64,000 nucleotides of DNA from contig JACOXD010000004.1 of assembly GCA_016176465.1 (NCBI GenBank), positions 50,119-114,118 on the forward strand, written 5' to 3'. The notes below the pieces were generated by a model that searched no databases, had not been told where the DNA came from, and was given only the letters and a program-made list of their open reading frames with translations. How positions within the stretch are numbered: position 1 is the stretch's first letter; every line of letters begins with the position of its first letter. The DNA is from Candidatus Daviesbacteria bacterium. Its GTDB lineage: Bacteria > Patescibacteriota > Microgenomatia > Daviesbacterales > UBA10151. A program made the position numbers and the translations under genes. Positions 5,572 through 58,132 of the stretch are shown piece after piece.

Positions 5572-7824
5572 TTATTTAGCAGTTACATCAAGCGAGATAC
5601 GGGAAGCTAAAAACGGCAACCTTTGTAAAAATGAAGGTAGTGCTGGGTTAATTTGAATATCGCTTGAAATAACATTCTCGATAGAACGTAAAATAGATGC
5701 CGCATCTGTTGGAGTTTTAAATGCAATTTTCTTTTTAATATTTTCCTCATCTAATTTTGGCATTAATTTAGCCTTAAACTTTGCAAGAAAAATTAACTTC
5801 CCATCATCTTCCATCTTAGCCACATCAGCTTGGGTTTCTGTATCAGCTAAATCTAAACTAAAACCTGGCGGGACATTTGTTTCTACTAATTTAGAAACCA
5901 TTCTTTTTAAATCCATGTCTGAGTAGGCAGTACCAGTAAATTTAAGGGATAAATTAAGGGTAAAATCCACTCCTTGATCATTAATATTTTTAGAATAGGT
6001 CGTTTTGGCATTTTCTTCAGATAAAGCCTCTTCTAATACTTTATAATCTCCTGATAATTTAGCTTGTAGATTATCTTTAGCTTTTTTACGTAAATTGGAT
6101 GAAGCTATGGCCAACAATTTTTTCTGATCATCTGATGTCACAATTGTTACATCTTTACTGGTACCCCCGCTAAATGTGCTATCTACTTTGGCTGAGAAAT
6201 TATCGCTAGATTGACCTTGAATTGATAATTCCTTGCCGGCCGGTAAGTTACCTTCAGGTCCAATTTGAGCTGCTGTTACATTAGCGGTTGCTTTTCCAAA
6301 AGCAATTCCTCCTTCAACAGCAGACTCTGAAGCAATGTTAACTGTAGAATCCAAGGTAAATTGGATATTATCTCCAACTAAAATACTCCCTTGGGAGAAA
6401 GTTTTTGGGGAGGTGGTTTTATTGTAAATAACTACGGCTCCTTTTGAGGGATCTCCAATTTTTTTCTTTCCACTCGCAACTCCTCGCTCAAAACCTGTTA
6501 AAACTGTCTCTACCCGTTTACCCGGAATTTTCCTATTAGATTCATCTACAGAAGTCACTTCTGGATCTACTATAACTTGAGCCTCTTTTTCCAAAATTCT
6601 TGGATCAATAAATATTGTTACTTTGGCATGAGGAATAAATAAGTAGCTAACAATAAGTATTATTAAAATTAATATAGGTAATAGCCAAACTTTGGGAACA
6701 AATTGAAATCGAAAGGAAGTAATTTTATTTTTAATTACCAAAGGTAGACTAGTAGATAGCTTTGCTAAATAATTTGGAGGAATAATATCTTTTCTGATAA
6801 AATCTTTTTCCTGCTCATCTATTTCTAACCCTTCATCCATCAGTTGCTTCTCTTCCTTGTCCTGAGCGTTTGCAGTGAACGAAGTTGAACTGGAATCGAA
6901 GGATTCCTCTTCAATATTTCCTTGGACAAATCCTACCTCTTTTAAGGAATCATGCGAATGGGGGGAATCTAAACTGGCAATTTCTTGTTTTTTAACTTCT
7001 TTAGTTGTTAGATTATTTAAATCTTTTTCCCCGAAAGTAGTATCAGGATTTAACTCAGAGGCTCCAGCAAACGAAACAGCAGCAATGGTTACCTTTTGAT
7101 CCAAAATATCTACTTTAGGAAGGTGTAGGAAGGGCAAGTTTGACATCCAGGGAAAAGATAACAAATCATCTTTTAGTTTCTCACCGTTTACACTCCCTGT
7201 TGGACCAAACAGCAAAATTTTAGAAGGCAGCACTTCTACCTCAGAAAAAGTAAGCAAACCTTTTTCTATATCTTTTGCCAAATTATCAGATCTTCTAACA
7301 GATTCGCTTCCGATGATTTTTCCAGCTTTGACAATGGTGATGATTAAAGGATCAGAAATATTTACTAAAATAGCAGTTAAAGGCACTCCTTGGATTTTTT
7401 GCAGCAGATGGGAGATAGCGTGGGCTGATGAAACATAGGCCATGGGAGATAAATCTAACTCCTTAACTAAATCCTTAATGGTTTTTAAATGCTCCTCCTT
7501 TAAATTGTCATCCTGAAGCCAGGAATCAGGAACACCAAAGAGGATTTTTGAGGGTTCAATCTCAAGCGCGCCTAAAGTTTCATCTAAGCTCAAATTAGCA
7601 GCCTCAATTAATTTACCATCCTCAATATTAGCCAAAGCTATATTAACTAACTTTAGTTGATTGTTTTCCAGACTCCATAAACTTGCTTGAACTTGTGTTT
7701 GGTCAATATTTAACGCAAAAAAGTATTCATTTTCAGAAGACTTTGGAGAAAAAAAAGGTAGCTTGGGCAGCTTATCTAAAAAGCTCATAAGAAACTTAAA
7801 ATATCTTACCATACTCAATCTCAA
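5572..7824 (-). CDS. Large bitopic membrane protein with an FtsA/PilM-like (actin-fold) N-terminal domain, a central TM and a long extracytoplasmic C-terminal region
   Basis: 750 aa; N-terminal FFALNIDQTQV resembles the phosphate-1 motif of PilM/FtsA; TM VWLLPILILIILIVSYLF; Ser/Thr/Gly-rich beta-rich ectodomain. Confidence 0.3.
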   Translation of the reverse strand: MRLSMVRYFKFLMSFLDKLPKLPFFSPKSSENEYFFALNIDQTQVQASLWSLENNQLKLVNIALANIEDGKLIEAANLSLDETLGALEIEPSKILFGVPDSWLQDDNLKEEHLKTIKDLVKELDLSPMAYVSSAHAISHLLQKIQGVPLTAILVNISDPLIITIVKAGKIIGSESVRRSDNLAKDIEKGLLTFSEVEVLPSKILLFGPTGSVNGEKLKDDLLSFPWMSNLPFLHLPKVDILDQKVTIAAVSFAGASELNPDTTFGEKDLNNLTTKEVKKQEIASLDSPHSHDSLKEVGFVQGNIEEESFDSSSTSFTANAQDKEEKQLMDEGLEIDEQEKDFIRKDIIPPNYLAKLSTSLPLVIKNKITSFRFQFVPKVWLLPILILIILIVSYLFIPHAKVTIFIDPRILEKEAQVIVDPEVTSVDESNRKIPGKRVETVLTGFERGVASGKKKIGDPSKGAVVIYNKTTSPKTFSQGSILVGDNIQFTLDSTVNIASESAVEGGIAFGKATANVTAAQIGPEGNLPAGKELSIQGQSSDNFSAKVDSTFSGGTSKDVTIVTSDDQKKLLAIASSNLRKKAKDNLQAKLSGDYKVLEEALSEENAKTTYSKNINDQGVDFTLNLSLKFTGTAYSDMDLKRMVSKLVETNVPPGFSLDLADTETQADVAKMEDDGKLIFLAKFKAKLMPKLDEENIKKKIAFKTPTDAASILRSIENVISSDIQINPALPSFLQRLPFLASRISLDVTAK

Positions 7825-8016: not shown

Positions 8017-9915
8017 GTGAAATCATCTGATATTAGAAAAAAATATTTAGAATTTTTCCAAAAAAGAGGACATAAAATAATTCCCTCCTCTTCTTTAGTG
8101 CCGGAAAATGACCCGACTACTTTATTTACTGGTTCTGGAATGCAGCCGATGATTCCTTATCTTTTAGGAGAACCTCATCCAGAGGGAAAAAGAATAGTTG
8201 ATTCCCAAGTGGCTTTTAGATCCCAAGATATTGAAGAAGTAGGTGATAATCGTCATGACACTTTATTTGAGATGCTGGGTAATTGGAGCTTGGGAGACTA
8301 TTTCAAAAAAGAGCAACTAAGTTGGTATTTCGAATTTTTAACCAAGGAGTTAAACCTTGATCCAAGTAAAATTTACGTTAGTGTTTTTATTGGAGATGAA
8401 AAAAATAAACTTCCTAAAGATATTGAGTCAGCAAAGATCTGGAAGGAGCTTTTTTCCAAAAAAGGAATTGAAGCTAAAGATTTTGAATTTGGTTCAATGG
8501 AGGATGCTGCAAAAATGGGGATGAAAGATGTCAGAATTTTTTATTATGATGCTTTAAAAAATTGGTGGTCCAGAGTTGGTGAACCGGAAAACATGCCTGC
8601 TGGAGAACCGGGTGGTCCGGATTCTGAAGTATTTTATGATTTTGGTTTAGAGCATGATCCAAAGTATGGTAAATATTGCCATCCTAATTGTGACTGCTCT
8701 AGGTTTGTAGAAATTGGTAATTCGGTTTTTATGCAATATATCAAACAATCGGATGGAAGTTTTAAAGAATTACCTCATAAAAATGTTGACTTTGGAGGAG
8801 GATTGGAGCGAACTTTAATGGCTGTTAATAATGAACCAGATATGTTCAAAAACGATCTCCATTTTCCAATAATTGAAAAACTTATTAAAGATACAGGTAA
8901 TGAATATGGAAAAGATGCAAAAGCTACCTCAGCTTTTAGGATTGTTGCTGATCACTTAAAAGCGGCTACATTTTTAATAAAAAATGGCGTCACTCCATCT
9001 AACAAACAACAAGGCTATGTCTTAAGAAGATTGCTTCGAAGATCCGCTGTTAAATTATCTGATTATGACTTGGATTTTGTAGATACTTTGGCCAATCTTT
9101 CTGGAGTAGTTATTGATATCTATCAGGGGACTGATTATTTTGGCAAAGACGATAATGAAAATATTAAAAAAGTGATTATTGATGAGTTAGAAAAGTTTGA
9201 AAAAACAATCAAACATGGACTAAAAGAAATAGAGAAAATAGAGAAAATTACTGGCAAAGTTGCCTTTTACTTTTATCAGACTTTTGGTTTTCCCTTAGAG
9301 ATAACTGCAGAGGTAGCTAAAGAAAAAGGACAGGAAATTAATTTTAAAGAATTTGAAGAAGAGTATAAATTACATCAAGAATTATCTAGAACAACCTCAG
9401 CTGGTACTTTTAAAGGAGGTTTGGCAGATGCTAAAGAACAAACTACTAAACTCCATACCGCTAATCACTTAATGCAAGCTGCACTAAGACAAATTTTAGG
9501 AGAGCATGTTAGACAACACGGATCAAATATAACAGCCGAGAGACTAAGATATGATTTTTCTCATGATCAAAAATTAAGTGATGCGGAAATCAAAAAAGTT
9601 GAAAATTTAGTAAATGAACAAATCAAGAAAGATTTAAAAGTATGGTTTGATATTGAAGATAGAGACCAGGCAATTAAAGATGGCGCTTTAACGAATGTTG
9701 GCGAGAGCTATCCTGATAAGGCCAAAGTTTATAAAATTGGCACCCTGCCCAGTCATCCCGATGAGTCCACGATATCGGAATCTCTCTTCTCTAAAGAGCT
9801 CTGTGGCGGGCCACATGTGGAACATACAGGTGTAATTGGAAAATTTAAAATTCTAAAACAAGAGTCTTTAGGTGCAGGTTTAAAAAGAATTTATGCTACA
9901 ATTGACAAAATATAA
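8017..9915 (+). CDS. alaS: Alanyl-tRNA synthetase, short form lacking the C-Ala domain (GTG start)
   Basis: Class II AlaRS N-terminus; editing-domain HTANHLMQAAL (HxxxH) and CGGPHV; 632 aa. Confidence 0.9.
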   Translation: MKSSDIRKKYLEFFQKRGHKIIPSSSLVPENDPTTLFTGSGMQPMIPYLLGEPHPEGKRIVDSQVAFRSQDIEEVGDNRHDTLFEMLGNWSLGDYFKKEQLSWYFEFLTKELNLDPSKIYVSVFIGDEKNKLPKDIESAKIWKELFSKKGIEAKDFEFGSMEDAAKMGMKDVRIFYYDALKNWWSRVGEPENMPAGEPGGPDSEVFYDFGLEHDPKYGKYCHPNCDCSRFVEIGNSVFMQYIKQSDGSFKELPHKNVDFGGGLERTLMAVNNEPDMFKNDLHFPIIEKLIKDTGNEYGKDAKATSAFRIVADHLKAATFLIKNGVTPSNKQQGYVLRRLLRRSAVKLSDYDLDFVDTLANLSGVVIDIYQGTDYFGKDDNENIKKVIIDELEKFEKTIKHGLKEIEKIEKITGKVAFYFYQTFGFPLEITAEVAKEKGQEINFKEFEEEYKLHQELSRTTSAGTFKGGLADAKEQTTKLHTANHLMQAALRQILGEHVRQHGSNITAERLRYDFSHDQKLSDAEIKKVENLVNEQIKKDLKVWFDIEDRDQAIKDGALTNVGESYPDKAKVYKIGTLPSHPDESTISESLFSKELCGGPHVEHTGVIGKFKILKQESLGAGLKRIYATIDKI

Positions 9916-9937
9916 TACAATGATACAATAGTATTGT

Positions 9938-10189
9938 ATGAGTAATTATGTTACAACCAATATCAGACTTCCAGAAGAGGACTACTTAAGGCTTAAAGAA
10001 GAAGCTGCTAAAAATAGAAAAAGCCTATCAGCTGTTATTAGAGAGAAAATTAGTGGAAAAAAGCCAATTAAGGATTTTGCTAAGATGCTTTTAGAGTTAA
10101 ACACTGATTGGTTTACCGAAGAAGATTTTAAGACGTATAAGAAAAGCAGAAGGCAACTTAAGAAAAGAGTAAAATTATACGATTGGTAA
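9938..10189 (+). CDS. vapB: Ribbon-helix-helix (CopG/VapB-like) antitoxin
   Basis: N-terminal RHH TTNIRLPEEDYLRLKEEAAKNRKSLSAVIREKI; abuts the downstream PIN gene. Confidence 0.6.
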   Translation: MSNYVTTNIRLPEEDYLRLKEEAAKNRKSLSAVIREKISGKKPIKDFAKMLLELNTDWFTEEDFKTYKKSRRQLKKRVKLYDW

Positions 10190-10597
10190 ATGCAGATCCT
10201 GCTTGATACTTCAATCATTATTGATTATCTTCGTCAAAAAGATAAAAGTAAAACTCTACTTTACTTATTCGCTCATAGGCAATATAAACTTTATGTTTCT
10301 ATAGTCACTTATGCAGAAAGCTATGCTGGTAGAAGTATCTGGGAGAGAAAAGAAGCCATGAAGATCTTAGAAAATCTTTTTTCTTATATCAAGATTTTAC
10401 CTTTAGAAGAAAAAATCTCTAAAAAAGCAGGAAATATTAGCCATATAAACAATTTGGAAATTGTTGATGCCATAATTGCTGCAACAGCGCTGTCTCATAA
10501 GTTAAAGCTTGCTACATTAAATGTAAAAGATTTTAAAAAGATTAAAGGTTTAAAACTCTTTACACAAATTACATTAAAGTCCAAAGAAAAGGTGTAA
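10190..10597 (+). CDS. vapC: PIN-domain toxin VapC
   Basis: MQILLDTSIIIDYL (N-terminal Asp), DAIIAATAL, 135 aa PIN fold. Confidence 0.75.
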   Translation: MQILLDTSIIIDYLRQKDKSKTLLYLFAHRQYKLYVSIVTYAESYAGRSIWERKEAMKILENLFSYIKILPLEEKISKKAGNISHINNLEIVDAIIAATALSHKLKLATLNVKDFKKIKGLKLFTQITLKSKEKV

Positions 10598-10634
10598 ACC
10601 TAAATCACCCGGAGGGTGTTAAGAGGACTTCTTT

Positions 10635-10718
10635 ACAGGTGTAATTGGAAAATTTAAAATTATTAAACAGGAAACTTTGGGATCAGGACTTAGAAGAATC
10701 TATGCCAAGGTTTCGTGA
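10635..10718 (+). pseudogene. Orphaned duplicate of the alaS 3' end (last 28 codons), left downstream of the VapBC cassette
   Basis: 27 nt identical to alaS 9826-9852 (acaggtgtaattggaaaatttaaaatt), then a homologous in-frame tail TGVIGKFKIIKQETLGSGLRRIYAKVS*. Confidence 0.6.
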
Positions 10719-11498
10719 AATGTCCCTTCTAAGAAGCTTGGTATAGTTGATATGGTTATAAGCTCTTAATATTAATCCTGTGACTCCGGGATGATGTTTC
10801 CTTAAAAACAAATCCATAGCAGCTTTTCCATACATATACTTTACACCTGTCACAGAGCCATAATGCATAACTTCAACAGTAGGATCATAGACTAATCTTC
10901 CACCTGTCTGCCTTACTCTCATACCAAAATCATTGTCCTCCCCATACAGAAAAAAGTCAGGATCAAAACCACATAAATCATCAAACATTTTCTTATCAGT
11001 TAAAAGCATAGCCCCAGATATCCAGGCAACATCTGTTGGTTGATTATGTTCTCTCCAAACAAATCCAGATTTTGACCACCAAGTAAAATCCCCATGATCC
11101 CATGATTGGATAACTCCAGCAGGTGTAAGTAGGGCTGGACCGACCGCTTTAATATCCGTAGCTTCATCCATTCTGTCTAATAATCTAGCTACAGTTCTTG
11201 GTTGAGTAATCCTGATATCTGGATTCATAACTAAAATAGTTCTTCCAGTAGCTTGTTTTGCTAATAAGTTATGTCCTCTGGAGAATCCTAAATTCGCAGG
11301 AGAAAAAACAAAGCTAACGTTGCTATCATCCCGATATTCAGTTTCCACACCAGATAAATCATCACCTGATCCATTCTCTAAAATGCAAATGCGATAGTTA
11401 ATCCCGCTTTGAGTTAAGTCATTTGCAATATCAACCATGCTTTGGCGCAAATAATCCTTAGTATTGTAATTTATCACCTGAACTGATACTTCAATCAC
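10683..11498 (-). CDS. Family 2 glycosyltransferase (GT-A fold)
   Basis: GT2 layout with DxD-like YGEDNDFGMR, 271 aa. Confidence 0.65.
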   Translation of the reverse strand: MIEVSVQVINYNTKDYLRQSMVDIANDLTQSGINYRICILENGSGDDLSGVETEYRDDSNVSFVFSPANLGFSRGHNLLAKQATGRTILVMNPDIRITQPRTVARLLDRMDEATDIKAVGPALLTPAGVIQSWDHGDFTWWSKSGFVWREHNQPTDVAWISGAMLLTDKKMFDDLCGFDPDFFLYGEDNDFGMRVRQTGGRLVYDPTVEVMHYGSVTGVKYMYGKAAMDLFLRKHHPGVTGLILRAYNHINYTKLLRRDISRNLGIDSSKS

Positions 11499-11562: not shown

Positions 11563-11829
11563 TTATTTTTTATCTTTTGAATGATCAATCACTCGTTTTA
11601 GTGATGGGATCTTAAAGCGGGAGAGTAATCCAGCTACTCCAGCTGCTGCCATTTTTAATGGAGCCCCAACCCCCTCTGCTACATCCTCAGCATTTTCCAA
11701 AATTTTATTTATTCTATCTAGCGCCAGTTTTACTTGCCTTAAAAAAACGAGCAAAGCAATAGCAATAATCACAAAAATCAAAGACCAAATTGAAATTAAA
11801 ATTACTAGAGCAATTTCTAAAGCGCTCAT
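11563..11829 (-). CDS. Small membrane protein (DUF948-like: N-terminal TM plus coiled coil)
   Basis: 88 aa, one TM helix followed by a helical segment. Confidence 0.3.
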   Translation of the reverse strand: MSALEIALVILISIWSLIFVIIAIALLVFLRQVKLALDRINKILENAEDVAEGVGAPLKMAAAGVAGLLSRFKIPSLKRVIDHSKDKK

Positions 11830-16285: not shown

Positions 16286-17587
16286 TTAAGCAGCGGGAGC
16301 CAGGGTAAAACCTAAATCACCCTCTACAGCTAATTTACCCTTAGGTGTATAAGCCCTTGCTTTTCCTGTACCACTTGCACTACCCCCTCTATCCTCTTGT
16401 AAATTAACCCCTTCTACTTCAATTCTTGCCTCATCTCCATACTGAAGCATTCTAAGAAATCTAACGCGAATTAACTCTGTAAGTAAAGCAACCCTTCCTT
16501 TATACTCTGGTTTTGATAAGATCACCATTGCACCAAATTGATTCATAGCTTCTTCTGTTATTACTCCTGGAATTACTGGGAATCCTGGGAAATGTCCTCC
16601 TCTCCAGTTTATATCAGGATGAATAAGATTTACCATGTGGCCTGAGGCTCTTTCTCCAGGAACTAACTCTAAAACTCCTCCTATAAAGTTAATTGGCCAG
16701 CGATGAGGAATAATATCCTCTACCTGTTCCCTGGTCATTATAGAATCTGCTCTCATTGGAGGAGGTCCAACTAATTCTCCATAACCCTCGGGAAGATGTT
16801 CCCTATATCTAGGTCTAACTCCAACATATTCTGTATGACCATTTGGGTAAGGCTTTGTTACAACTTTAACTATACTATTAGCATAATCTTGGGCCGAAGG
16901 TGTATGTCCAAACTCACCTATAGAGTCCCAATATGCAATCTTTGACTCTTCCGGCCTTCTTCTAGACCAATTATCTGTAACAAATGTTTGATCTAGCGCA
17001 TTCCCCACGACTTCTATGTATTTGAATCTTTCAAATTCTCCTCCTGCAGTAAATGCAAGCCGGAATTGGGTAGATGCAAATCTTTTACCCTCTCTTACAT
17101 TTATATATATATCGGGCACATAAAGCATTGCTTCAGGGTGATCAGTGTGTGCTTGAATACTTTGATTAAAAACAACAGGAGCTCCATCAGGCATCATGGG
17201 AGCTAATGCTCTTAAAAGTGCTAAGTTCCGACCATAATTAAATGCAATAGACTCTTCTAAGGTCCCTCGCAAACCTGCCCCTGTGTTCATAACTAAAGCA
17301 CCTACTACTCCACCTAATAAATGAGCTTTTTCTACATATTGATCAATAGTTTCATCTCTATTAAGATCCCCTTCAACATAAAACATATCCCTTCCAAGAG
17401 CTCTTACCCCATTTACTATTAATTCCTGATCTGAGCGGTGTTTATCGCTCCTAAAACCTCCTAGAACATTCCACTCTGCAACGGCAAAAGCCAAGGCAGT
17501 ATACTTACCTACATCTCTAGAAGTTCCAGTAATGGCAACAAGGGGTCTTCTTTTTTCTCCGGATTCTAATGCTGCGGGACCTGCCAT
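16286..17587 (-). CDS. Fusion of an SDR-type reductase (FabI-like Y-x6-K; putative enoyl reductase) and a FabZ-like hotdog 3-hydroxyacyl-ACP dehydratase
   Basis: N-terminal VAITGTSRDVGK Rossmann, LVMNTGAG (NNAG-like), YINVREGK (Y-x6-K); C-terminal HRWPINFIGGVLEL...WRGGHFPGFPVIPGVITEEAMNQ is the FabZ signature. Confidence 0.6.
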   Translation of the reverse strand: MAGPAALESGEKRRPLVAITGTSRDVGKYTALAFAVAEWNVLGGFRSDKHRSDQELIVNGVRALGRDMFYVEGDLNRDETIDQYVEKAHLLGGVVGALVMNTGAGLRGTLEESIAFNYGRNLALLRALAPMMPDGAPVVFNQSIQAHTDHPEAMLYVPDIYINVREGKRFASTQFRLAFTAGGEFERFKYIEVVGNALDQTFVTDNWSRRRPEESKIAYWDSIGEFGHTPSAQDYANSIVKVVTKPYPNGHTEYVGVRPRYREHLPEGYGELVGPPPMRADSIMTREQVEDIIPHRWPINFIGGVLELVPGERASGHMVNLIHPDINWRGGHFPGFPVIPGVITEEAMNQFGAMVILSKPEYKGRVALLTELIRVRFLRMLQYGDEARIEVEGVNLQEDRGGSASGTGKARAYTPKGKLAVEGDLGFTLAPAA

Positions 17588-17591
17588 AAAT

Positions 17592-18527
17592 TTATCCTAA
17601 TCTCAAATGAGTTACGCCTGCTTCTACTTCTAAAATTTGTCCTGTCACAGGTAGTGCGAGATCACTAATAAGATAAAGTACTGTGTGAGCTGCTTCTTCA
17701 GGGGTAATAAATCTTTGACCACCAAGAAGGGGCATTTTTTGTGCGATAGGTAATAGAGGGTCAACCCCCAGCTTTTTTTGCTCATCTGTTTGTTGTCGAC
17801 GATAAGCAAATTCCGCAGTTCTCCAAATTTTGGTCCTAATCGGGCCAAGAGCAGCTGAGTTAACAGCTACTCCATCTTGAGCAAATTCAATCGCCCAAGC
17901 CTTAGTGAGCCCATCAATGCCTGCTTTAGTTGCAACATAAGCTGATTGATAAGCGTTGCCATGACGTCTACTTATGCTTGTTATATTAGCAATTCGCCTT
18001 CTACCCCTAGGCGCTTTTCTTATATCTTCAATTACTCCCAATGTAGTATTAAAAGTTCCGATAAGATTAACCTCTACAACTCCCCTAAAGGTAATCATCA
18101 TCTTTTCTCTTGCTCTATCAGTTTCCCCACTAAATGGTCTATCTGCAGTTATTCCTGCGTTATTAACTAGAGTATCTAGCCCTCCAAATAAATCTCTTCC
18201 CACTCTGGCAATCGCCACTCCTGTTTCCGGCAATTGAATCTCTCCGGTTACTACCTCCACTCCTACTCCAAAACTATTAAGAGTATGAGCCAGTTCTTCT
18301 AATTGAACTTTTCTTTCTGGTTTTCCATTTAAAACTAAACTTGCTCCCGCAATTGCAAATCTTTCAGCAATAGCTTTACCTACTCCTGCATTTGCTCCTG
18401 TAATAGCTACAGTTCTTCCTGTTAAACTTAGTCCTGAGGTTCTTTCACCTTCTACAGTTCTATGGGGACCTAAGTGTCTTCGGAGAATTTGTCTTCTTGT
18501 TTCTGGTGCTTCTGAAGGTGCTGGCAT
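17592..18527 (-). CDS. 3-oxoacyl-ACP reductase-like SDR ketoreductase (FabG-like)
   Basis: TGANAGVGKAIA, NNAG, catalytic S...YVATK (Y-x3-K). Confidence 0.75.
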   Translation of the reverse strand: MPAPSEAPETRRQILRRHLGPHRTVEGERTSGLSLTGRTVAITGANAGVGKAIAERFAIAGASLVLNGKPERKVQLEELAHTLNSFGVGVEVVTGEIQLPETGVAIARVGRDLFGGLDTLVNNAGITADRPFSGETDRAREKMMITFRGVVEVNLIGTFNTTLGVIEDIRKAPRGRRRIANITSISRRHGNAYQSAYVATKAGIDGLTKAWAIEFAQDGVAVNSAALGPIRTKIWRTAEFAYRRQQTDEQKKLGVDPLLPIAQKMPLLGGQRFITPEEAAHTVLYLISDLALPVTGQILEVEAGVTHLRLG

Positions 18528-18734
18528 ATTTTTTTTAATTAAGCGCTAAACTAACATAGCAAAATATAATTTGCAATATAGTATTTACTAAAAGATCAAT
18601 CTGTAACTTTGGAAACAAAATTTTGGTTATTTTAATTACAAATTTTTAGTAACTAAAACTACAGAAAGTTAATTTTTAAAAGAATATATTGACAACTATT
18701 AACTAAAATTATAGGATCAATTTCATAATTAAAC

Positions 18735-20084
18735 ATGGAAAGATCTGGAGATATTGCTGTAACTGGAATGGGTCTTGTTTCTCCCTTAGGACCTGATAAA
18801 GAAAGTTCCTTTGAAGCCATGCTCAGAGGAGAATCCGGTATAGCATTACTTGAACCACAAAGAAAGTATAAAGGTCTTGGCACTCGAATTGGTGGACAAC
18901 TAAAAGGCTTTCGACCGGAGGATCACTTTAGCGCATTTGCCCGTTTACAAACTCACCGCTCAACCCAAATGGCAGAGGTAGTAGTAAGACAAGCTATAAA
19001 AGATGCAGGTTTTGAAATAGGAAAGAGAGGAGTTTTTGCTCCTGATCGAAAAAAAAGTTTAATCTCAGGTACTAGCGTAGGAGGGATGGTTGGACTTCCT
19101 TCAGAAGAGTGGGTATTAGCAAGGGCTCATTATGAAGAATGGTCTAGGGCGGCCTCTATGAGTACTTTAAGAAGTCTTCCAGAAAGATCTGCAACTTATC
19201 CTGCAATGGAGCATGGGATCACGGGTCCTGTTAAACAAGAATCTGGAGCCTGTGCAACATTCGCCTTAGTATTATCCGAAGCAGAGTTTAGGCTTAATTA
19301 CCGTTATACGAGAAACGGTTTAGATGAAAATGACCCAGATGCCACAGATGCAGACTTAATAATAGTAGTTGGAACAGATGCGGGAATTTCCCCACTAATG
19401 ATTAGATCCTTTAATGTCTTGGGGGGTAAGGAGGGAGCGCTTTCCAGAAGGAACGATGATCCAGAAGGTGCTAGCAGACCCTATGATCAATATGCGGATG
19501 GATTTGTTCCTGCTGAAATGGCAGCAGCTCTTCTCTTAGAGCCTCGAGAACTGGCTGAAGCAAGAGGTGCACATATTTATGCTTTATATCTAGGTGGAGC
19601 TGATACTTGCGATGCTGATAGGGCTACAGCTGTGAATTCAAATAGACTAGCCGATACATATAGACTTACTTTAAGAAGAAGTGGAATTATAATTGCTAAA
19701 AGGATTGATATTGCTTTTAATGCCCATGCCACCTCAACCCTTCCCGGTGATAAAGGTGAAGCAACTGCAGTGAAAATAGCATTTGGAGATAAAGCCAAAG
19801 ACATTCCTATAAGTGCAATGAAAGGGTATTTTGGTCATGGTCTAGGTCCTTGCGCCGGAGGAGAGATAGTAATGGGATTAATGGCTATGGAGAAACAAAT
19901 CGTAATTGCTAATCGTAATTTACATAATCGCATCCCTGAAGCTGAAGGTTTATTTTTAGTAGAGCCTGAATTAGTAGATGGTGAACTTAGATACTATAGA
20001 CCTTGGAAATATGATGTTATGTTGAAAGCTTCTTCTGGATTTGGTGGAATAAATTCTGTTCATGCTTTTAGACTATATCAATAG
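18735..20084 (+). CDS. Beta-ketoacyl-ACP synthase (KAS I/II, FabF/FabB-like), divergent
   Basis: AVTGMGLVSPLG; Cys in ESGACATFA; His in NAHATSTLPGDKGE; Lys/His in AMKGYFGHGLGPCAG. Confidence 0.8.
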   Translation: MERSGDIAVTGMGLVSPLGPDKESSFEAMLRGESGIALLEPQRKYKGLGTRIGGQLKGFRPEDHFSAFARLQTHRSTQMAEVVVRQAIKDAGFEIGKRGVFAPDRKKSLISGTSVGGMVGLPSEEWVLARAHYEEWSRAASMSTLRSLPERSATYPAMEHGITGPVKQESGACATFALVLSEAEFRLNYRYTRNGLDENDPDATDADLIIVVGTDAGISPLMIRSFNVLGGKEGALSRRNDDPEGASRPYDQYADGFVPAEMAAALLLEPRELAEARGAHIYALYLGGADTCDADRATAVNSNRLADTYRLTLRRSGIIIAKRIDIAFNAHATSTLPGDKGEATAVKIAFGDKAKDIPISAMKGYFGHGLGPCAGGEIVMGLMAMEKQIVIANRNLHNRIPEAEGLFLVEPELVDGELRYYRPWKYDVMLKASSGFGGINSVHAFRLYQ

Positions 20085-20087
20085 TTT

Positions 20088-21410
20088 ATGCGAGAAAAAG
20101 ATCTAGACGAGAGAGTTGCTATTGTTGGAGTTGGAGCTGTAACTCCTGCTGGTAATTCTGCCCAGGCTACTTGGGAAGGATTTACTCACTCAAACCGCTC
20201 CTTTATTACAGCTATGTCTGTTGGTCGTGATAATTTCCATTCTATGCAACTTGCAGGCAAAGTTAAAGATTTTGATCCATATAAATACGCTGGTGGAAAA
20301 CAACTTAAAAGATCAGACCGCTATGCTCAATTTGCAGTTGCAGCCTCGGTTGAGGCAATGTTAGCTTCAGGCCGCTTAAGGATGGTTACAAAACCAAATA
20401 GAACAACTGCAGCAGTTTATGAATTAATCGATATTGATCCTTTTAGAATAGGTGTAGATATGGGTATAGCGGTTGGCGGATCTTCTGCAATTGACCAAGG
20501 GAGAGAAGACATAATGCTAAAAGGCCCGGATAGAATTAGTCCTAATACAATTTCTCTTTTAAATCCCTCAAAAGCTGCAAGCGATCCAGCCCTTATAATT
20601 GGCGCGCTAGGCGGAGCGATGACTCATAACAGCGCGTGTGTGAGCGGAGTCAGCGGAATTATAGAGCTTTATAAAAAAATAGTCAGAGGTGATTTGGACA
20701 TGGGAGTTGGAGGTGGAACTGAGTCCCCCCTACACCCACTAGCTTTCTATGCATTCCAAAAAATGGGAGTGTTGGTTTCATATGAGAAATTTAAAGATAG
20801 CCCGGAAGAAGCCGTAAAGTCACTTGATGTAGATGGGGAGGGATTTGCTATGGGTGAAGGGGTAGGAGTTTTAGCCTTAGAGAGATATAGTTTGGCGGTA
20901 AAAAGAAAGGCAAGAATTCTAGGGGAAATTGTAGGACCAGCTTATTTTTGTGATCCAAGGGATGTGTTAGATCCAACTGAAAAGAACGTTGAAATATTAG
21001 TAGAAATGATCCTTGAAAATTCTGGCTTAGAACCATACGAGGTTGATCATCATAACCTTCATGCAGGCGCATCAACGGGTGATGGCACAGAACTGCGAGG
21101 ATCAAGAAGAGTTTACAAATACCAAACTGAATATATAAGTTTTCATGGACCTAAATCAAGAATTGGTCACTTAATGGGCGGGGCTGGAGGTGCTGAAAGT
21201 GTAATTTTAGTTTATGCAGTAGCAACTGATACCGACCCGCCTACTGCCAATTTGAAGAATCCAAGAGAGGCAGGCTTTTATGTTCCCAGAAGAACAGGTA
21301 GAAGATTAATAAGGGCAGGGATAAAAACAGCTTTGGGTTTAGATGGGCAATATGGTGGGTTTGGAGTCGTCAAACCTGCCCCCAGATATCTTAATTACGC
21401 TGCTGCTTAA
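20088..21410 (+). CDS. Second beta-ketoacyl-ACP synthase (FabF-like, retains Cys-His-His; not a CLF)
   Basis: AIVGVGAVTPAGN; Cys in HNSACVSGV; His in NLHAGASTGDGTE; PKSRIGHLMGGAGGAE. Confidence 0.75.
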   Translation: MREKDLDERVAIVGVGAVTPAGNSAQATWEGFTHSNRSFITAMSVGRDNFHSMQLAGKVKDFDPYKYAGGKQLKRSDRYAQFAVAASVEAMLASGRLRMVTKPNRTTAAVYELIDIDPFRIGVDMGIAVGGSSAIDQGREDIMLKGPDRISPNTISLLNPSKAASDPALIIGALGGAMTHNSACVSGVSGIIELYKKIVRGDLDMGVGGGTESPLHPLAFYAFQKMGVLVSYEKFKDSPEEAVKSLDVDGEGFAMGEGVGVLALERYSLAVKRKARILGEIVGPAYFCDPRDVLDPTEKNVEILVEMILENSGLEPYEVDHHNLHAGASTGDGTELRGSRRVYKYQTEYISFHGPKSRIGHLMGGAGGAESVILVYAVATDTDPPTANLKNPREAGFYVPRRTGRRLIRAGIKTALGLDGQYGGFGVVKPAPRYLNYAAA

Positions 21411-21450
21411 TTTCTTTTGTTTATGAGACGCTCGCTCAGCTTACTCATTA

Positions 21451-22446
21451 CTAAGAGGTGACCGGCTCCCAGCTAGTAGCAATGTGTAATCCTAAGCTAG
21501 TTAATATTTTCTCTGCTCTACCCTCACCAATAATTTTTGGATTCATGTCTGTTAGAGTAGTTTTTGTTCCAAATTCAACAAATCTTTGGACTCCTTCTTG
21601 TCTTAATTTCAAAACAGCATCTTTCCAACGGACAGCTGAAGTTAGCTGTGCTTCTAGCTCTTGTCTAATTTGTTCTACGGTCTCTAAAACCCAGGCTTTA
21701 GTATTGCCTACTATACCTACTACAGGTGGTTTAATAGGGGAACTTTCCAAAGCAGGGAGCAATCTTTCCCGGGCTGGTTGCATATGACGGGTATGAAAAG
21801 GACCTGCTACTCCTTTTAATAAGAAACCCCTTATTCTCGCTGGCTCCAGTAAGGCCGGAAGCTGATCCAAACTCTTCTTTAGCCCTCCGACTACGAACTG
21901 CTCACCATTATTAACCGAAGCAACATCAACTCCTATAGGACTTACTAAATTGATTAGTTCTGCTTCATTTTCTTCACTTGTTTCCATCCTAACAACATAT
22001 AATCCTCCTGGATTTTGAATACAAGCTTCCTGCATTGCCTCACCACGAATTTGCACTAATCTCAAAGCCTCTTCAAAGCTTAAAGCACCTGCCGCAACTA
22101 AAGCAGTATAGAGCCCAAGGCTGTGTCCAGAAGTAGAAATTTCCCATTCACTGAAGTCTCCATTATTCTCGTCTTCGAAGAGCTCTCTACAAACCTCGCC
22201 ATAAGCTAAGAGTCCTGGCTGGGTTACTCTAGTCTCAGTTAAAACCTCAATTGGTCCTTTAAACATTAGCTCTGTTAAAAATTTTCCACCACTACCTGTT
22301 GAAAAAGGACCTAAAGTATCATTAGCAACATCTAGTGTTTTTTTAACTCCTGGATATGTGGAGTATAAATCTGCTGCCATCCCTACAAATTGGCTTCCTT
22401 GGCCTGGAAACACCCAGGCGACTTTAGGTTTTTGCTCTACGCTCAT
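21451..22446 (-). CDS. fabD: Malonyl-CoA:ACP transacylase (FabD-like acyltransferase)
   Basis: FPGQGSQ, GHSLG active-site Ser, GPFHT. Confidence 0.85.
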   Translation of the reverse strand: MSVEQKPKVAWVFPGQGSQFVGMAADLYSTYPGVKKTLDVANDTLGPFSTGSGGKFLTELMFKGPIEVLTETRVTQPGLLAYGEVCRELFEDENNGDFSEWEISTSGHSLGLYTALVAAGALSFEEALRLVQIRGEAMQEACIQNPGGLYVVRMETSEENEAELINLVSPIGVDVASVNNGEQFVVGGLKKSLDQLPALLEPARIRGFLLKGVAGPFHTRHMQPARERLLPALESSPIKPPVVGIVGNTKAWVLETVEQIRQELEAQLTSAVRWKDAVLKLRQEGVQRFVEFGTKTTLTDMNPKIIGEGRAEKILTSLGLHIATSWEPVTS

Positions 22447-44138: not shown

Positions 44139-44663
44139 ATGGGTAAAGATAAAATCCAGCAAATTGAGCTAAAAACAAGAGATATCTTAGAGCAAGTTTT
44201 AGGAAAAATTATAGATCTAAAACCTCCTATTAATTTAGCCAAAGTTTTAGAGTATTTTGATGTTTCTTTAAGTCTGGCACGTTTTAAAGTTCCATCAGTT
44301 GCTGGAGCTTTTGATAAGAGATTAAAAATGATTTATCTATCAAAAGATGAACCATACAAAAGACAATTTTTTACAGCAGCTCATGAGTTAGGACACTTAG
44401 TTTTAAATCATAAAAAAAACTTTGATGTTTTTTATAGACAACAGCTTTCAGAGTTTAATGGTTTATCCGCCGAAGCTAGAGCGAAGGAGGGAAAAGCTTC
44501 TGAAGAAAAAGAAGCAAATTATTTTGCAGCATCCTTACTAATGCCCGAAGAATTAGTTAAAAAATTCTGGAATGAGAAAAAAGATATAGAACTTTTAGCA
44601 GCTTACTTTGGTGTCTCCCGTTCTGCTGCCTACTGGAGACTTAAAAACTTAAAGGTTATTTAA
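44139..44663 (+). CDS. ImmA/IrrE-family (DUF955) zinc metallopeptidase
   Basis: HELGHLVLNH (HExxH), EEKEANYFAASLLMP. Confidence 0.55.
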   Translation: MGKDKIQQIELKTRDILEQVLGKIIDLKPPINLAKVLEYFDVSLSLARFKVPSVAGAFDKRLKMIYLSKDEPYKRQFFTAAHELGHLVLNHKKNFDVFYRQQLSEFNGLSAEARAKEGKASEEKEANYFAASLLMPEELVKKFWNEKKDIELLAAYFGVSRSAAYWRLKNLKVI

Positions 44664-44664
44664 T

Positions 44665-45051
44665 ATGGCAGTAGCAAATTTTCTTTCTCCCCAAAAAATT
44701 ATAGAAACAAAAACAGTTGAGGTTTTAAAAAATCCTCAAACTTGGCAAAAGCAAGCAACCCAAGAAGTAAGAGAGGACTTCTCTGAGTTAGATAAATTAA
44801 GGTTTAAAGATATAGATTGGAGGCTAAAAAATAGAGAAAACTTTAGAAAATTTTTAATGGGACTTTTGATTTTTCAAAATGTTGCTGTGTTTTTAATAGT
44901 AGGACTAGCAGTTTGGTTTGATAAAGTAAAAGGTTTAGAGTTAATCTTTGCAACATTAATTGGTGGAACCTTGCTAGAGACAGCTGGGTTAATTCTAATA
45001 ATTATTAAGTGGTTATTTTCAGAAATATCTTATAAGGGTAAAAACTTTTAA
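44665..45051 (+). CDS. Membrane protein (2 C-terminal TMs) translationally coupled to the ImmA-like gene
   Basis: 2-nt gap from the upstream gene; hydrophobic C-terminal half. Confidence 0.35.
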   Translation: MAVANFLSPQKIIETKTVEVLKNPQTWQKQATQEVREDFSELDKLRFKDIDWRLKNRENFRKFLMGLLIFQNVAVFLIVGLAVWFDKVKGLELIFATLIGGTLLETAGLILIIIKWLFSEISYKGKNF

Positions 45052-56798: not shown

Positions 56799-57101
56799 TT
56801 AATTTCCGAACCAACCGTACTTTTTTAAGTCTACCATGAAATCTGAAGAAACCTCCACCCCCTCTTGTTCAAGGAGTGTTTTTTGCAAAGCTTTTGAGTG
56901 ATCAAAGCATTTAATGGAGATAAATCCATGTCTATTTATCACCCTAAACCAAGGTAAATCCTCTTCATTATTGTGTAAAATTCCTCCTACAATTCTAGCT
57001 GCTCTTGGCATACCAGCTAAAGTAGCTAATGTTCCATAAGTAGTTACTTTACCATAGGGAATTTTTTTAGTTAAGGAAATAACTTGTAATTTAAAACTCA
57101 A
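56799..57101 (-). CDS. atl: Alkyltransferase-like protein (ATL; MGMT DNA-binding fold with Trp replacing the active-site Cys)
   Basis: YGTLATLAGMPRAARIVGGIL plus PWFRVIN where MGMT has PCHRV. Confidence 0.7.
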   Translation of the reverse strand: MSFKLQVISLTKKIPYGKVTTYGTLATLAGMPRAARIVGGILHNNEEDLPWFRVINRHGFISIKCFDHSKALQKTLLEQEGVEVSSDFMVDLKKYGWFGN

Positions 57102-57355
57102 GATTGGATTAATTTAACCAGTTCTGCTTTTGGCATAGCTCCAATTTTCCTACCCACTTCTTTACCATCCTTTAATACTATATAAGTAGGAATGCTCATT
57201 ACACCATTTTGGGAGGCTTTATCAGGTTCTTCATCAACATTAATCTTTACAATCTCTACTTTACCTGAATATTCTTTTTCTACCTCTTCCAAAATAGGAT
57301 CCATTATCCTACAAGGTCCACACCATGGAGCCCAAAAATCAAGAAGCTGTGTCAT
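57098..57355 (-). CDS. trxA: Thioredoxin
   Basis: WAPWCGPC. Confidence 0.88.
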   Translation of the reverse strand: MTQLLDFWAPWCGPCRIMDPILEEVEKEYSGKVEIVKINVDEEPDKASQNGVMSIPTYIVLKDGKEVGRKIGAMPKAELVKLIQS

Positions 57356-57400
57356 AGGATAAAAATTATATCACCAAAATTTAAAGATTAAAGTAGTTAC

Positions 57401-58132
57401 TTAAATGAAACCGTGCGCTGAAACTTGACCTCCCTGTTGAGAAGGCGCTTCCATTAAAACTGCTCGTACATGAGCCTCTACCAATTTAGACATAACCTCC
57501 CCATCTCCTTGATCCATAAAGTACTCCAATATAGTAAAGTAATTCTCCTGATCTGAATCGTCACCTGAGATAAATTGTTTAGCCCAGGCTATCGCCGCAA
57601 CTCTACGATGAGCTAGTTCTACTCTATCTGGTCCTTCGTAAATTTTTCTCACTTGCTCAAGGGGAATCAGTTTCTTATCGTCTTTTCCTAGAAGCAAGGA
57701 TCCGGCCAATTTAGCAAACCCATCACAGATTTCACCATGTAATTCTCCCATCCTTTCTTGAAGTGGAGTTCTTAACCCTGCTGCGGAAGTATAGAATGCC
57801 TCTGCCAATAACTCTAACTTCTCGCGCGTATTAGGAAGAGAATCCCAATCACTTCTAAAAAACGCCGGTACTCCAATTGAAAACCTCTGCGCTTCAGTAT
57901 AGGCCGGATCAGTTCTCACTCCTGCTAATCCACGAGCTGCCAAACTCATCGCTTCAGCCAAAGCTTCATTCCTATTCGGCGCCATCTCTCCATGTGGGCT
58001 AATCAACACATCTATTATTCCTCTTCCCACAACATACATCTCATGAGGCCTTAGAGAACCTGGATCTTGCTCGAATCTTGCTAATAAATCCGGACTTGCC
58101 ATAATTGCTGGGTAATATAAACCTATAGGCAT
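57401..58132 (-). CDS. Hypothetical protein, Ala/Arg/Gly-rich, higher GC (likely acquired)
   Basis: No motif recognised; composition differs from its neighbours. Confidence 0.35.
   Translation of the reverse strand: MPIGLYYPAIMASPDLLARFEQDPGSLRPHEMYVVGRGIIDVLISPHGEMAPNRNEALAEAMSLAARGLAGVRTDPAYTEAQRFSIGVPAFFRSDWDSLPNTREKLELLAEAFYTSAAGLRTPLQERMGELHGEICDGFAKLAGSLLLGKDDKKLIPLEQVRKIYEGPDRVELAHRRVAAIAWAKQFISGDDSDQENYFTILEYFMDQGDGEVMSKLVEAHVRAVLMEAPSQQGGQVSAHGFI

What the first reader, a model, noticed from the sequence alone, without database searches (positions are those of the whole stretch)
9826..10718. VapBC cassette inserted at the alaS 3' end, flanked by a 27-bp direct repeat and an orphaned copy of the alaS tail
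The last 27 nt of homology (acaggtgtaattggaaaatttaaaatt, 9826-9852) recur at 10635-10661, immediately after the RHH-antitoxin/PIN-toxin pair. The second copy continues in frame into a diverged but homologous AlaRS C-terminus (TGVIGKFKIIKQETLGSGLRRIYAKVS*). This is the signature of a small integrative element that targets the gene's 3' end and brings a replacement tail. Alternatively it is a recombination-mediated cassette insertion with target duplication.
Basis: seen in the sequence. Interest (0 to 1): 0.6.

Follow-up and report, generated by a model that had tools for sequence, protein, structure and literature searches.

The report
Toxin-antitoxin cassette between two alaS tails
A small VapBC toxin-antitoxin gene pair sits at the end of the alanyl-tRNA synthetase gene between two different versions of that gene's last ~25 codons. 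This looks like the scar of ordinary host recombination stacking DNA from two lineages, not the work of a dedicated integrating element, and the same scar recurs around other toxin-antitoxin cassettes in related ultra-small bacteria.

Summary
An exact 28-nt direct repeat (9825-9852 = 10634-10661) opens two alaS 3' ends that are only 68% identical afterwards. The differences between the tails are mostly synonymous or conservative, so both evolved as working tails in different lineages.

No integrase or transposase was found in the 64 kb. The ~0.68-kb vapBC cassette occurs at unrelated sites elsewhere. At two of them it is flanked by perfect 30- and 33-nt repeats of unrelated sequence.

Other toxin-antitoxin cassettes (ParDE, HigBA, HicAB, MazF) in Patescibacteria are likewise bounded by duplicated heads or tails of housekeeping genes. 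A relative (L162) has a second orphan alaS tail behind a different insert.

Best reading: two alternative alaS-end modules were stacked by one homologous exchange at the 28-nt core and one non-homologous joint at 10633|10634. This matches "insertion with long target duplication", previously described for restriction-modification gene complexes. A replacement tail is supported. A site-specific integrative element is not. Which module arrived last is unresolved. Interest is moderate.

The parts
8017..9915 (+). alaS (alanyl-tRNA synthetase, 632 aa, short Patescibacteria type ending after the editing/SAD domain). Its last 4 codons (IDKI*) read into the vapBC promoter.
   Evidence: Pfam tRNA-synt_2c and tRNA_SAD. 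100% match to an NCBI Candidatus Daviesbacteria AlaRS. Relatives end ...RIYATVE*.
9825..9852 (+). Core repeat, copy 1 (TACAGGTGTAATTGGAAAATTTAAAATT), inside alaS codons T-G-V-I-G-K-F-K-I.
   Evidence: Exact repeat, 0 expected by chance. 28/28 identical to copy 2 but only 22-26/28 to relatives.
9853..9915 (+). Tail A: the functional alaS 3' end. It is the LGAGLKR type, as in L163 and the L162 orphan.
   Evidence: Alignment A1. 38-42/47 identity to relatives' tails, 32/47 to tail B.
9902..9939 (+). vapBC promoter (TTGACA-16 nt-TG-n-TACAAT, 9902-9929) and palindrome ATACAATA-G-TATTGTAT (9923-9939), which overlaps the -10 and the vapB ATG and is a likely VapB operator. This is the left end of the conserved cassette.
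   Evidence: Promoter scan, 11 of 12 matches plus TG. Similarity between cassettes from 9 contexts starts sharply at the -35 hexamer, which is TTGACA in 7 of them. The palindrome was read from the sequence; the operator role is inferred.
9938..10189 (+). vapB, ribbon-helix-helix antitoxin (83 aa).
   Evidence: Pfam RHH_1 3e-05. Homologous cassettes also carry an 81-86-aa upstream gene.
10190..10597 (+). vapC, PIN-domain toxin (135 aa). Its start abuts the vapB stop. Its C-terminus is about 8-10 aa longer than homologues because it reads into the alaS-type terminator region.
   Evidence: Pfam PIN 1.3e-19 over 118/120 profile positions. Homologues of 125-131 aa cover about 91% of the query. Acidic residues D6, E43, D93 and D114 are seen in the sequence.
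10581..10623 (.). Canonical alaS-downstream intergenic terminator region (hairpin CACCCGGAGGGTG at 10606-10618), now displaced behind vapC.
   Evidence: Aligns with the sequence just downstream of alaS in L163 and L164; 32 nt are identical to L164. Terminator-like hit on the - strand. The fold is not better than shuffles; conservation is the evidence.
10624..10633 (.). About 10 nt of unassigned sequence ending at the non-homologous joint 10633|10634. It may be the start of a donor's small-gene tail (reverse reads KKSS*).
   Evidence: No similarity to the sequence left of core copy 1. The reading as a gene-tail remnant is tentative.
10634..10661 (+). Core repeat, copy 2.
10662..10718 (+). Tail B: the orphaned alaS 3' end (LGSGLRR type), intact reading frame with a stop codon. 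It has no start codon, and there is an in-frame stop upstream at 10620-10622.
   Evidence: Over codons 10-24 there are 14 nt differences from tail A but only 4 conservative amino-acid changes.
10683..11498 (-). Family-2 glycosyltransferase gene. Its last 12 codons overlap tail B on the opposite strand. It belongs to the module attached to tail B and is absent from relatives' alaS loci.
   Evidence: Pfam Glycos_transf_2 1.3e-13. No hit in 80 alaS loci. Not present in L162-L164. Nearest representatives are at most 41% identical apart from two truncated hits (46% and 44%).
11563..11829 (-). Small membrane-protein gene (88 aa). In relatives it is the convergent neighbour of alaS. It marks the right edge of the variable region.
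   Evidence: Orthologues of 74-76 aa lie next to alaS in L162-L164.

Best explanation
The locus holds two alternative 'alaS 3'-end modules' in tandem, joined by host recombination rather than by an element-encoded recombinase.

Module X (9853-10633) is a contiguous piece of canonical Daviesbacteria DNA: alaS tail A, a vapBC cassette, and the normal alaS terminator. The cassette is a simple insertion with no duplication of its own. It sits between the third-from-last alaS codon and about 10 nt past the old stop.

Module Y (10662 onward) is a more divergent alaS tail B fused tail-to-tail with a glycosyltransferase gene.

Each module is preceded by the same 28 nt of this genome's alaS. That is what one homologous exchange at or next to this identity block, plus one non-homologous joint at 10633|10634, would leave. 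Two routes give this result: Campbell-type or ends-in integration of a short fragment, or an unequal exchange between two allelic chromosomes.

The outcome is an 'insertion with long target duplication' that spans the stop codon. alaS therefore stays intact, with a slightly altered C-terminus (...ATIDKI), and one tail is orphaned.

vapBC is an intact, self-promoted, probably autoregulated type II toxin-antitoxin pair. Its addiction property plausibly explains why such rare recombinants persist.

Shown: the anatomy, the foreign-versus-self discontinuity at the core, the absence of mobility genes, and recurrence at other loci.
Inferred: the recombination route, the direction (which module came last), and TA activity.
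For: 1. Repeat and gene identities.

2. There is a discontinuity at the core. It is 28/28 identical between copies, while the next 47 nt are 32/47. Relatives show 22-26/28 and 38-42/47. The probability that all 13 mismatches fall in the last 44 of 72 positions is 7e-4.

3. The tails differ by 14 nt in codons 10-24 but by only 4 conservative residues. Tail B's residues (I, S, R) occur in relatives' working tails. So both evolved as functional tails.

4. Positions 10581-10623 are the alaS-downstream terminator of L163 and L164. The block between the repeats is therefore a chunk of a genome with canonical synteny.

5. Relatives L163 and L164 have alaS, then the terminator, then the small gene, with no cassette and a single tail.

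6. No integrase, transposase or recombinase domain in about 56 ORFs. No plasmid or phage match.

7. The cassette family is 77-78% identical to this cassette in DNA across contexts, with a fixed left end at the -35. It lies at unrelated loci. Two have the same geometry with different cores: L165, 33 nt perfect then 72% (thioredoxin gene head); and L185, 30 nt. The window's own thioredoxin locus is an empty site.

8. The same scar surrounds other cargo: ParDE at the alaS head (L106); HigBA plus HicAB at a triplicated gene head (L122); MazF, HicA and other inserts at the ung tail (L066, L087, L053, L112); and a second orphan alaS tail behind a 267-aa gene plus higBA in L162.

9. [quoted passage not shown] These have no mobility genes, and the repeats often span start or stop sites (PMC2853133).
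Against: - No closely related genome (closest AlaRS 69% identical) with a single-module allele was found, so no true empty site exists for this event.
- The direction is ambiguous. In three loci the vapBC block is what lies between the repeats, which suggests it was the insert. But tail A and the terminator are the phylogenetically concordant parts, while tail B and the glycosyltransferase are the outliers, which suggests they were the incoming DNA.
- About half of the vapBC contexts examined show no flanking repeat, so the duplication is not obligatory for this cassette.
- A trans-acting recombinase encoded outside the 64 kb cannot be excluded.
- The assignment of 10624-10633 is weak.
Confidence: 0.68

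Rival explanations
1. A non-autonomous site-specific integrative cassette. The 28-nt core is an att site, and the unit (tail A + vapBC) is moved by an integrase encoded elsewhere, as prophages e14 and 21 do at icd, carrying a replacement gene end.
For: The identity block followed by a homeologous gene end is the classical attL/attR picture. Core lengths are similar (28, 30, 33 nt) at three vapBC loci.
Against: No integrase in the unit or in 64 kb. The cores at the three loci are unrelated in sequence. The conserved cassette starts at its promoter and excludes the tail. The unit also carries the host-type terminator. The same scar surrounds unrelated TA families.
Confidence: 0.1
2. An old in-place tandem duplication of the alaS end, unrelated to vapBC, whose copies then diverged. 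The cassette and the glycosyltransferase were inserted later.
For: Two relatives (the window and L162) have the left edge of the orphan tail within about 10 nt of each other in alaS. The vapBC insertion itself made no duplication.
Against: A decaying orphan should collect random changes. Instead, 8 of 12 changed codons are silent and the 4 replacements are conservative states seen in working tails. A 28/28 core next to a 68% tail is not uniform decay. L163 and L164, which are closer in the 3' half of alaS, have one tail. L162's orphan has no perfect core and is of the other tail type.
Confidence: 0.1
3. Assembly artefact: two strain variants of the alaS downstream region were chained through the shared 28-mer.
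For: This is a metagenome-assembled genome, and the region is strain-variable in related populations (L165 vs L175).
Against: The joint 10633|10634 must exist in reads for any k above 28. An independent Logan contig is 100% identical across vapBC, the joint, tail B and the glycosyltransferase start. The analogous L165 structure recurs in 8 assemblies from different projects.
Confidence: 0.04

Closest known systems
[quoted passage not shown] 2000 Gene 259:99; Furuta, Abe & Kobayashi 2010, PMC2853133)
   Same: A small addiction-type gene complex is bounded by direct repeats of about 30 to several hundred bp that are unique in the genome. No transposase or integrase is present. The repeats span a gene's start or stop so the target gene stays intact. 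Examples are mostly in naturally competent bacteria.
   Different: The cargo here is a type II VapBC pair, not a restriction-modification system. The two repeat copies are chimeric (28 nt perfect, then 68%), whereas reported repeats are about 93-100% identical throughout. The host is a Patescibacteria genome. No same-species empty site is available.
Prophage e14 / phage 21 integration in icd, and dusA- or tRNA-targeting genomic islands that carry a substitute gene end (own knowledge)
   Same: An identity block is followed by a diverged but functional replacement of the gene end, leaving an orphaned original end beyond the insert.
   Different: Those elements encode their own tyrosine integrase and always use the same att core. 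Here there is no integrase, the cores differ at each locus, and the insert is 0.8 kb.
Campbell-type insertion-duplication and homology-facilitated illegitimate recombination in transformable bacteria (de Vries & Wackernagel 2002; Prudhomme et al. 2002; own knowledge)
   Same: One homologous exchange plus one non-homologous joint (or circle closure). A 3'- or 5'-terminal gene fragment on the incoming DNA yields one intact gene and one orphan fragment. The identity block is near the minimal size for RecA exchange.
   Different: These are laboratory-defined processes. Their operation here is inferred from the product only. Homology-facilitated illegitimate recombination normally deletes rather than duplicates recipient DNA.
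Resistance of chromosomal addiction modules to allelic replacement (Handa et al. 2001; Sadykov et al. 2003, as summarised in PMC3874152)
   Same: An addiction module at a locus undergoing allelic exchange is retained, together with the incoming allele, through rearrangement or duplication.
   Different: This was shown experimentally only for restriction-modification systems. It is not tested for VapBC or here.
Integron gene cassettes (including TA cassettes of chromosomal superintegrons)
   Same: Small, often TA-bearing cassettes are stacked in arrays at one site (compare L122 and L066).
   Different: No IntI integrase, no attC-type imperfect inverted repeat at cassette ends, and the cassette carries its own promoter. 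The repeated 'site' is a piece of a neighbouring housekeeping gene.

Membership tests
Type II toxin-antitoxin, VapBC | PIN-domain toxin with conserved acidic residues | tested here: met
   PF01850 1.3e-19 over 118/120 profile positions. D6, E43, D93 and D114 are visible in the sequence. 308 homologues found, the listed ones all carrying the Pfam PIN domain and many named VapC.
Type II toxin-antitoxin, VapBC | Small DNA-binding antitoxin gene immediately upstream, in one operon | tested here: met
   RHH_1 3e-05. The vapB stop abuts the vapC ATG. The same 81-86-aa partner is found in all homologous cassettes.
Type II toxin-antitoxin, VapBC | Toxicity neutralised by the antitoxin; autoregulation at an operator | not testable with these tools
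   Only a strong promoter match and a 17-nt palindrome over the -10 and ATG are seen.
Insertion with long target duplication (Furuta 2010 criteria) | Direct repeat longer than 30 bp flanking the insert, unique in the genome | tested here: met
   72 nt at 82% (28 nt exact). It is the only such repeat in 64 kb.
Insertion with long target duplication (Furuta 2010 criteria) | Insert under 20 kb carrying an addiction-type complex and no mobility genes | tested here: met
   781-nt block containing only vapBC. No mobility domains in the window.
Insertion with long target duplication (Furuta 2010 criteria) | Related genome with an empty site in which the repeat occurs once | tested here: inconclusive
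   L163 and L164 have a single tail, the terminator and no cassette, but are only about 80% identical in DNA. No close relative was found.
Integrase-mediated integrative element with replacement gene end | Element-encoded (or nearby) tyrosine or serine recombinase | tested here: not met
   None in the unit or the 64-kb window. The rest of the genome was not available.
Integrase-mediated integrative element with replacement gene end | Same att core at independent insertions of the same element | tested here: not met
   The cores at the window, L165 and L185 are unrelated. The 27-mer is absent from the 184 loci fetched from other genomes (its one match, L081, is a copy of this locus).
Integrase-mediated integrative element with replacement gene end | Identity block followed by a substitute gene end that keeps the target gene intact | tested here: met
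Transposon / IS / MITE | Terminal inverted repeats and a short fixed-length target duplication | tested here: not met
   No inverted repeats at the cassette ends. Repeat lengths vary from 18 to 235 nt between loci.
Integron cassette | attC recombination site at the cassette end and an IntI/attI platform | tested here: not met
   No conserved sequence beyond the vapC end across contexts. No integrase.

The most novel reading that the evidence does not exclude
In Patescibacteria, duplicated ends of conserved housekeeping genes may act as portable homology arms, or as scars of failed allelic replacement, for toxin-antitoxin cassettes.

A TA module cannot be displaced by an incoming allele because of post-segregational killing. 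Survivors are then recombinants that stack the resident and incoming modules in tandem, duplicating the gene end. The resulting [gene end]-cargo-[gene end] unit can afterwards be exchanged between lineages, or extended into arrays, by plain RecA recombination. That would amount to an integrase-free analogue of an integron.

This would explain three things: why every repeat-bounded insert found in 1.47 Mb sits at a gene head or tail and most carry TA genes; why the repeat copies are chimeric; and why the same gene ends (alaS tail, ung tail, RodZ-like gene head) carry different cargo in different genomes.
Probability: 0.25. Interest if true: 0.65.

Novelty: new member of a known kind. Interest (0 to 1): 0.45.

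Why it matters
The locus shows, in an uncultivated streamlined bacterium, how a toxin-antitoxin cassette can sit inside the end of an essential gene without harming it, and how it can spread without any mobility enzyme. It extends 'insertion with long target duplication', documented for restriction-modification systems, to classical type II TA cassettes. It also adds a feature: chimeric repeats that record exchange between lineages. If the pattern is general, duplicated gene ends could serve as a simple genomic signature for finding accessory and defence cassettes and recombination hot spots in Patescibacteria. It would also give a testable link between addiction and genome rearrangement. For annotation, orphan gene tails and heads next to TA pairs should not be called pseudogenes of a decaying paralogue.

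Tried and rejected
- **Empty-site search.**
  - The exact AlaRS look-up failed.
  - A chimeric query (AlaRS C-terminus plus tail B) found only short proteins of 60% identity or less.
  - An exact glycosyltransferase look-up found nothing.
  - The closest AlaRS is 69% identical.
- **Distant alaS loci.** The 160 alaS loci from the genome and metagenome scans are 51-60% identical. None has vapBC, the glycosyltransferase or a second tail. They were useful only as a background set.
- **The 267-aa gene in L162.** I first took the gene overlapping alaS in L162 for the glycosyltransferase orthologue. BLASTP shows no similarity.
- **The 'junk' after vapC.** I first treated 10598-10633 as junk. It is the alaS terminator.
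- **Plasmid or phage vehicle.** No match.
- **Breakpoint mapping inside alaS.** Sliding identity to L162-L164 is uninformative because the relatives are too distant.
- **Glycosyltransferase C-terminus.** Checked for conservation to date the tail B/glycosyltransferase overlap. The last ~30 aa do not align in any homologue, so the check was uninformative.
- **RNA fold of the terminator region.** Not better than shuffles.
- **Shared motif among the cores.** None seen in the window, L165, L185, L106 or L162.
- **MazF arrays.** The assumption that L053, L087 and L112 are MazF arrays like L066 was wrong. They carry other cargo at the same ung tail.
Full report
**Observation**

The reported 27-mer is present exactly twice in the window, at 9826-9852 and 10635-10661. 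No match occurred in 100 shuffles, even with three mismatches allowed. The identity is in fact 28 nt (9825-9852 = 10634-10661), and ungapped similarity runs on to 72 nt at 82%. It is the only exact direct repeat of 20 nt or more with 200-4000 nt spacing in the 64 kb.

- alaS is 8017-9915 (tRNA-synt_2c, tRNA_SAD).
- The ORFs between the repeats are an RHH antitoxin (9938-10189) and a PIN toxin (10190-10597).
- The second repeat copy continues in frame as TGVIGKFKIIKQETLGSGLRRIYAKVS* (10635-10718).
- A convergent family-2 glycosyltransferase gene (10683-11498) overlaps its last 36 nt.

The window is a Candidatus Daviesbacteria contig. A separate Logan assembly contig is 100% identical over 9865-10904, which covers the critical joint.

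**The two tails are alleles, not a decayed copy**

After the 28-nt core the tails differ at 13 of the next 44 aligned positions. The chance that all 13 mismatches avoid the first 28 positions is 7e-4. In codons 10-24 there are 14 nucleotide differences but only four amino-acid changes (L/I, S/T, A/S, K/R). Tail B's residues are ones that working AlaRS tails of relatives use.

Over the 47 nt after the core, tail A matches relatives at 38-42/47. Tail B matches everything, including tail A, at only 31-35/47. Yet the cores are 28/28 identical to each other and 22-26/28 to relatives. There is therefore a sharp recombination breakpoint at the right edge of the core. At least one tail comes from another lineage.

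**What lies between the repeats**

Comparison with the three closest syntenic loci was decisive. These are L162, L163 and L164, with AlaRS 63-69% identical. L163 and L164 have alaS, then a short spacer with the hairpin CACCCGGAGGGTG, then a convergent 75-aa membrane-protein gene.

The same spacer sequence follows vapC in the window (10581-10623). Thirty-two nt are identical to L164. So the block 9853-10633 is a contiguous piece of a canonical Daviesbacteria genome: alaS tail A, vapBC and the alaS terminator.

Within that block the cassette is a plain insertion without duplication. Similarity among cassettes from nine contexts starts exactly at the -35 hexamer, which is TTGACA in seven of them. 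In the window this hexamer lies within the last alaS codons (...ACA ATT GAC AAA ATA TAA). The vapC reading frame runs about 10 codons into the terminator region. About 16 nt of the original alaS end and spacer were replaced.

The promoter is strong by consensus (TTGACA-16-TGnTACAAT). A 17-nt palindrome covers the -10 and the ATG. After 10623 come about 10 unassigned nucleotides and then, abruptly, core copy 2. There is no similarity between the sequences to the left of the two cores. Position 10633|10634 is therefore a non-homologous joint.

**No mobility enzyme, no common site**

Pfam scans of about 56 ORFs across the window found no integrase, transposase or recombinase. The cassette has no match in the plasmid or phage collections.

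VapC has many 55-77% identical homologues in Daviesbacteria, Levybacteria and relatives. Their cassettes are 77-78% identical to this one in DNA and lie in unrelated contexts.

Two of those contexts repeat the window's geometry with different cores:

- **L165** (eight independent assemblies). A perfect 33-nt repeat lies inside the 5' end of a thioredoxin gene. It is followed by a 72%-identical start codon and upstream segment. The cassette sits between the copies, with only 13 nt after the vapC stop.
- **L185.** A perfect 30-nt repeat abuts the cassette, 5 nt before the -35 and 8 nt after the stop.

The window's own thioredoxin locus (57098-57355) is syntenic with L165 and has one copy and no cassette. 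The other vapBC contexts show no flanking repeat. L175 shares L165's flanks but carries another cassette allele, which shows cassette exchange by homologous recombination within a population.

**The scar is general**

I scanned 1.47 Mb (186 sequences: 185 fetched loci plus the window) for non-low-complexity exact direct repeats of 24 nt or more, spaced 200-4000 nt. Every one bounds a small accessory insert at the head or tail of a housekeeping gene.

| Locus | Cargo | Duplicated gene end |
|---|---|---|
| L106 | ParDE | alaS head (orphan head of ~40 codons) |
| L122 | HigBA + methyltransferase, then HicAB | head of a RodZ-like gene, three copies |
| L066 | two MazF genes | ung tail |
| L087 | HicA pair | ung tail |
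| L053, L112 | unknown ORFs | ung tail |
| L002 | Y1-transposase-like gene | 235-nt duplication of the next gene's head |

The closest alaS relative, L162, has a second orphan alaS tail (8429-8509). It lies behind an unrelated 267-aa gene plus higBA and abuts the small gene, just as a native tail would. L162 also has an orphan tail of the small gene. Only the window and L162, out of about 165 alaS loci, have two tails. The alaS/small-gene junction is therefore a recurrent stacking point in this clade.

**Mechanism**

The product needs one homologous exchange at or just left of the core and one non-homologous joint at 10633|10634. Two routes fit:

- (a) Single-crossover or ends-in integration of an ~0.8-kb fragment (core, tail A, vapBC, terminator) into a genome whose alaS ended in tail B next to the glycosyltransferase.
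- (b) Stacking of an incoming allele (core, tail B, glycosyltransferase) behind a resident vapBC-bearing allele, by unequal or illegitimate exchange.

Route (a) is favoured because the vapBC block is the repeat-bounded unit at three loci, with cores of 28-33 nt. This is near the minimal identity for RecA exchange (own knowledge). Route (b) is favoured because tail A and the terminator are the concordant parts, while tail B and the glycosyltransferase are the outliers. The glycosyltransferase's nearest full-length homologues are no more than 41% identical.

Both routes require that the two parental alleles shared alaS up to 9852. I cannot resolve the direction.

**Comparison with known systems**

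[quoted passage not shown] Those have repeats of about 30 to several hundred bp and no mobility genes. Their repeats often span start or stop sites so the target gene survives, and most examples are in competent species (PMC2853133).

The 2013 review of restriction-modification and TA systems attributes this mode only to restriction-modification systems (PMC3874152). My literature searches found no description of it for type II TA cassettes.

It resembles integrase-mediated insertion with a substitute gene end (e14 and phage 21 at icd; own knowledge). However, it fails the defining tests for that class: there is no recombinase and no common core.

Chromosomal restriction-modification complexes resist allelic replacement (Handa 2001, via PMC3874152). 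That suggests the more novel reading given in the section on the most novel reading.

**Verdict**

This is a new example, with type II TA cargo and chimeric repeats, of a known but mechanistically unexplained class of rearrangement. Its recurrence in Patescibacteria gives it moderate interest.

Noticed in passing
L162:6824-8730: The closest alaS relative has its own orphan alaS tail (8429-8509, LLGKFKIIKQESLGANLKRIYATVEN*). It lies behind an unrelated 267-aa gene and a higBA (Gp49/HTH_3) pair. There is also an orphan tail of the small convergent gene (an 18-nt exact repeat, 7684-7701 = 8506-8523).
   Followed up: partly
L165:3622-4484 (also L166-L172): A vapBC cassette sits at the 5' end of a thioredoxin gene. 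It is flanked by a perfect 33-nt repeat ending at the WCGPC cysteine codon, then a 72%-identical start codon and upstream segment. The orphan head lies next to a thioredoxin-reductase-like gene.
   Followed up: partly
window 56799-58132: The window's own thioredoxin locus (MGMT-like gene, thioredoxin, then a 243-aa gene) is syntenic with L165. It has a single gene head and no cassette, so it is an empty site at genus or family distance.
   Followed up: yes
L106:68-897: A ParDE-type cassette (a 75-aa ORF plus a ParE toxin) lies between an orphan alaS 5' head and the full alaS gene. The repeat is 101 nt at 96% and decays towards the cassette.
   Followed up: partly
L122:1-1979: Three copies of the first ~6 codons plus upstream of a RodZ-like HTH_25 gene, with higBA plus a methyltransferase between the first two and hicAB between the last two. 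It looks like an integron-like array but has no integrase.
   Followed up: partly
L066:660-2042; L087:1325-2138; L053:1275-2126; L112:1394-1944: The 3' tail of the uracil-DNA glycosylase gene (..GFFGSKPFSKTNE..) is repeated downstream in four related genomes, with different cargo between the copies: two MazF genes, a HicA pair, a 242-aa unknown ORF and a 68-aa ORF.
   Followed up: partly
L002:5975-7388: A Y1 (IS200-like) transposase-like gene is flanked by a perfect 235-nt direct repeat of the head of the gene downstream of alaS. L163 also has a Y1_Tnp gene just upstream of alaS.
   Followed up: no
L177:1-119 and 1967-2085 (L174:1-64): The end of vapC, the spacer and the 3' tail of the NDK gene are repeated upstream of a 366-aa gene. 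The contig starts inside the repeat, so its extent is unknown.
   Followed up: no
window 8413-8724 vs L163/L164 (proteins P0021, P0023): alaS is mosaic in this clade. L163 and L164 share about 80% DNA identity with the window in the 3' half but only 20-40% in part of the catalytic half, where they carry a different AlaRS type.
   Followed up: partly
window 9700-9825: A GC-rich patch (46% vs about 32%) encodes a variable loop (LPSHPDESTISESL) just before the ELCGGPH motif. Relatives have different inserts here, up to ~50 aa in P0012.
   Followed up: no
window 16286-22446: A cluster of two ketoacyl synthases, a ketoreductase/enoyl-reductase-type SDR, a FabA-like dehydratase fusion and an acyltransferase. 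This is a fatty-acid or polyketide-type set, which is unusual for Patescibacteria.
   Followed up: no
window 44139-45051 and 61795-62374: Two further small gene pairs of possible TA or immunity type: an IrrE/M78 peptidase plus a 128-aa ORF, and a DUF2283 protein plus an 85-aa ORF. Neither is flanked by a direct repeat.
   Followed up: no
L185:2510-2680: A truncated Gp49/HigB-like reading frame (MEGKWQIELYENAEGEKLVEEFFDSLDKKAKNN*) lies next to an intact HTH antitoxin gene, immediately left of the 30-nt repeat that bounds the vapBC cassette.
   Followed up: no
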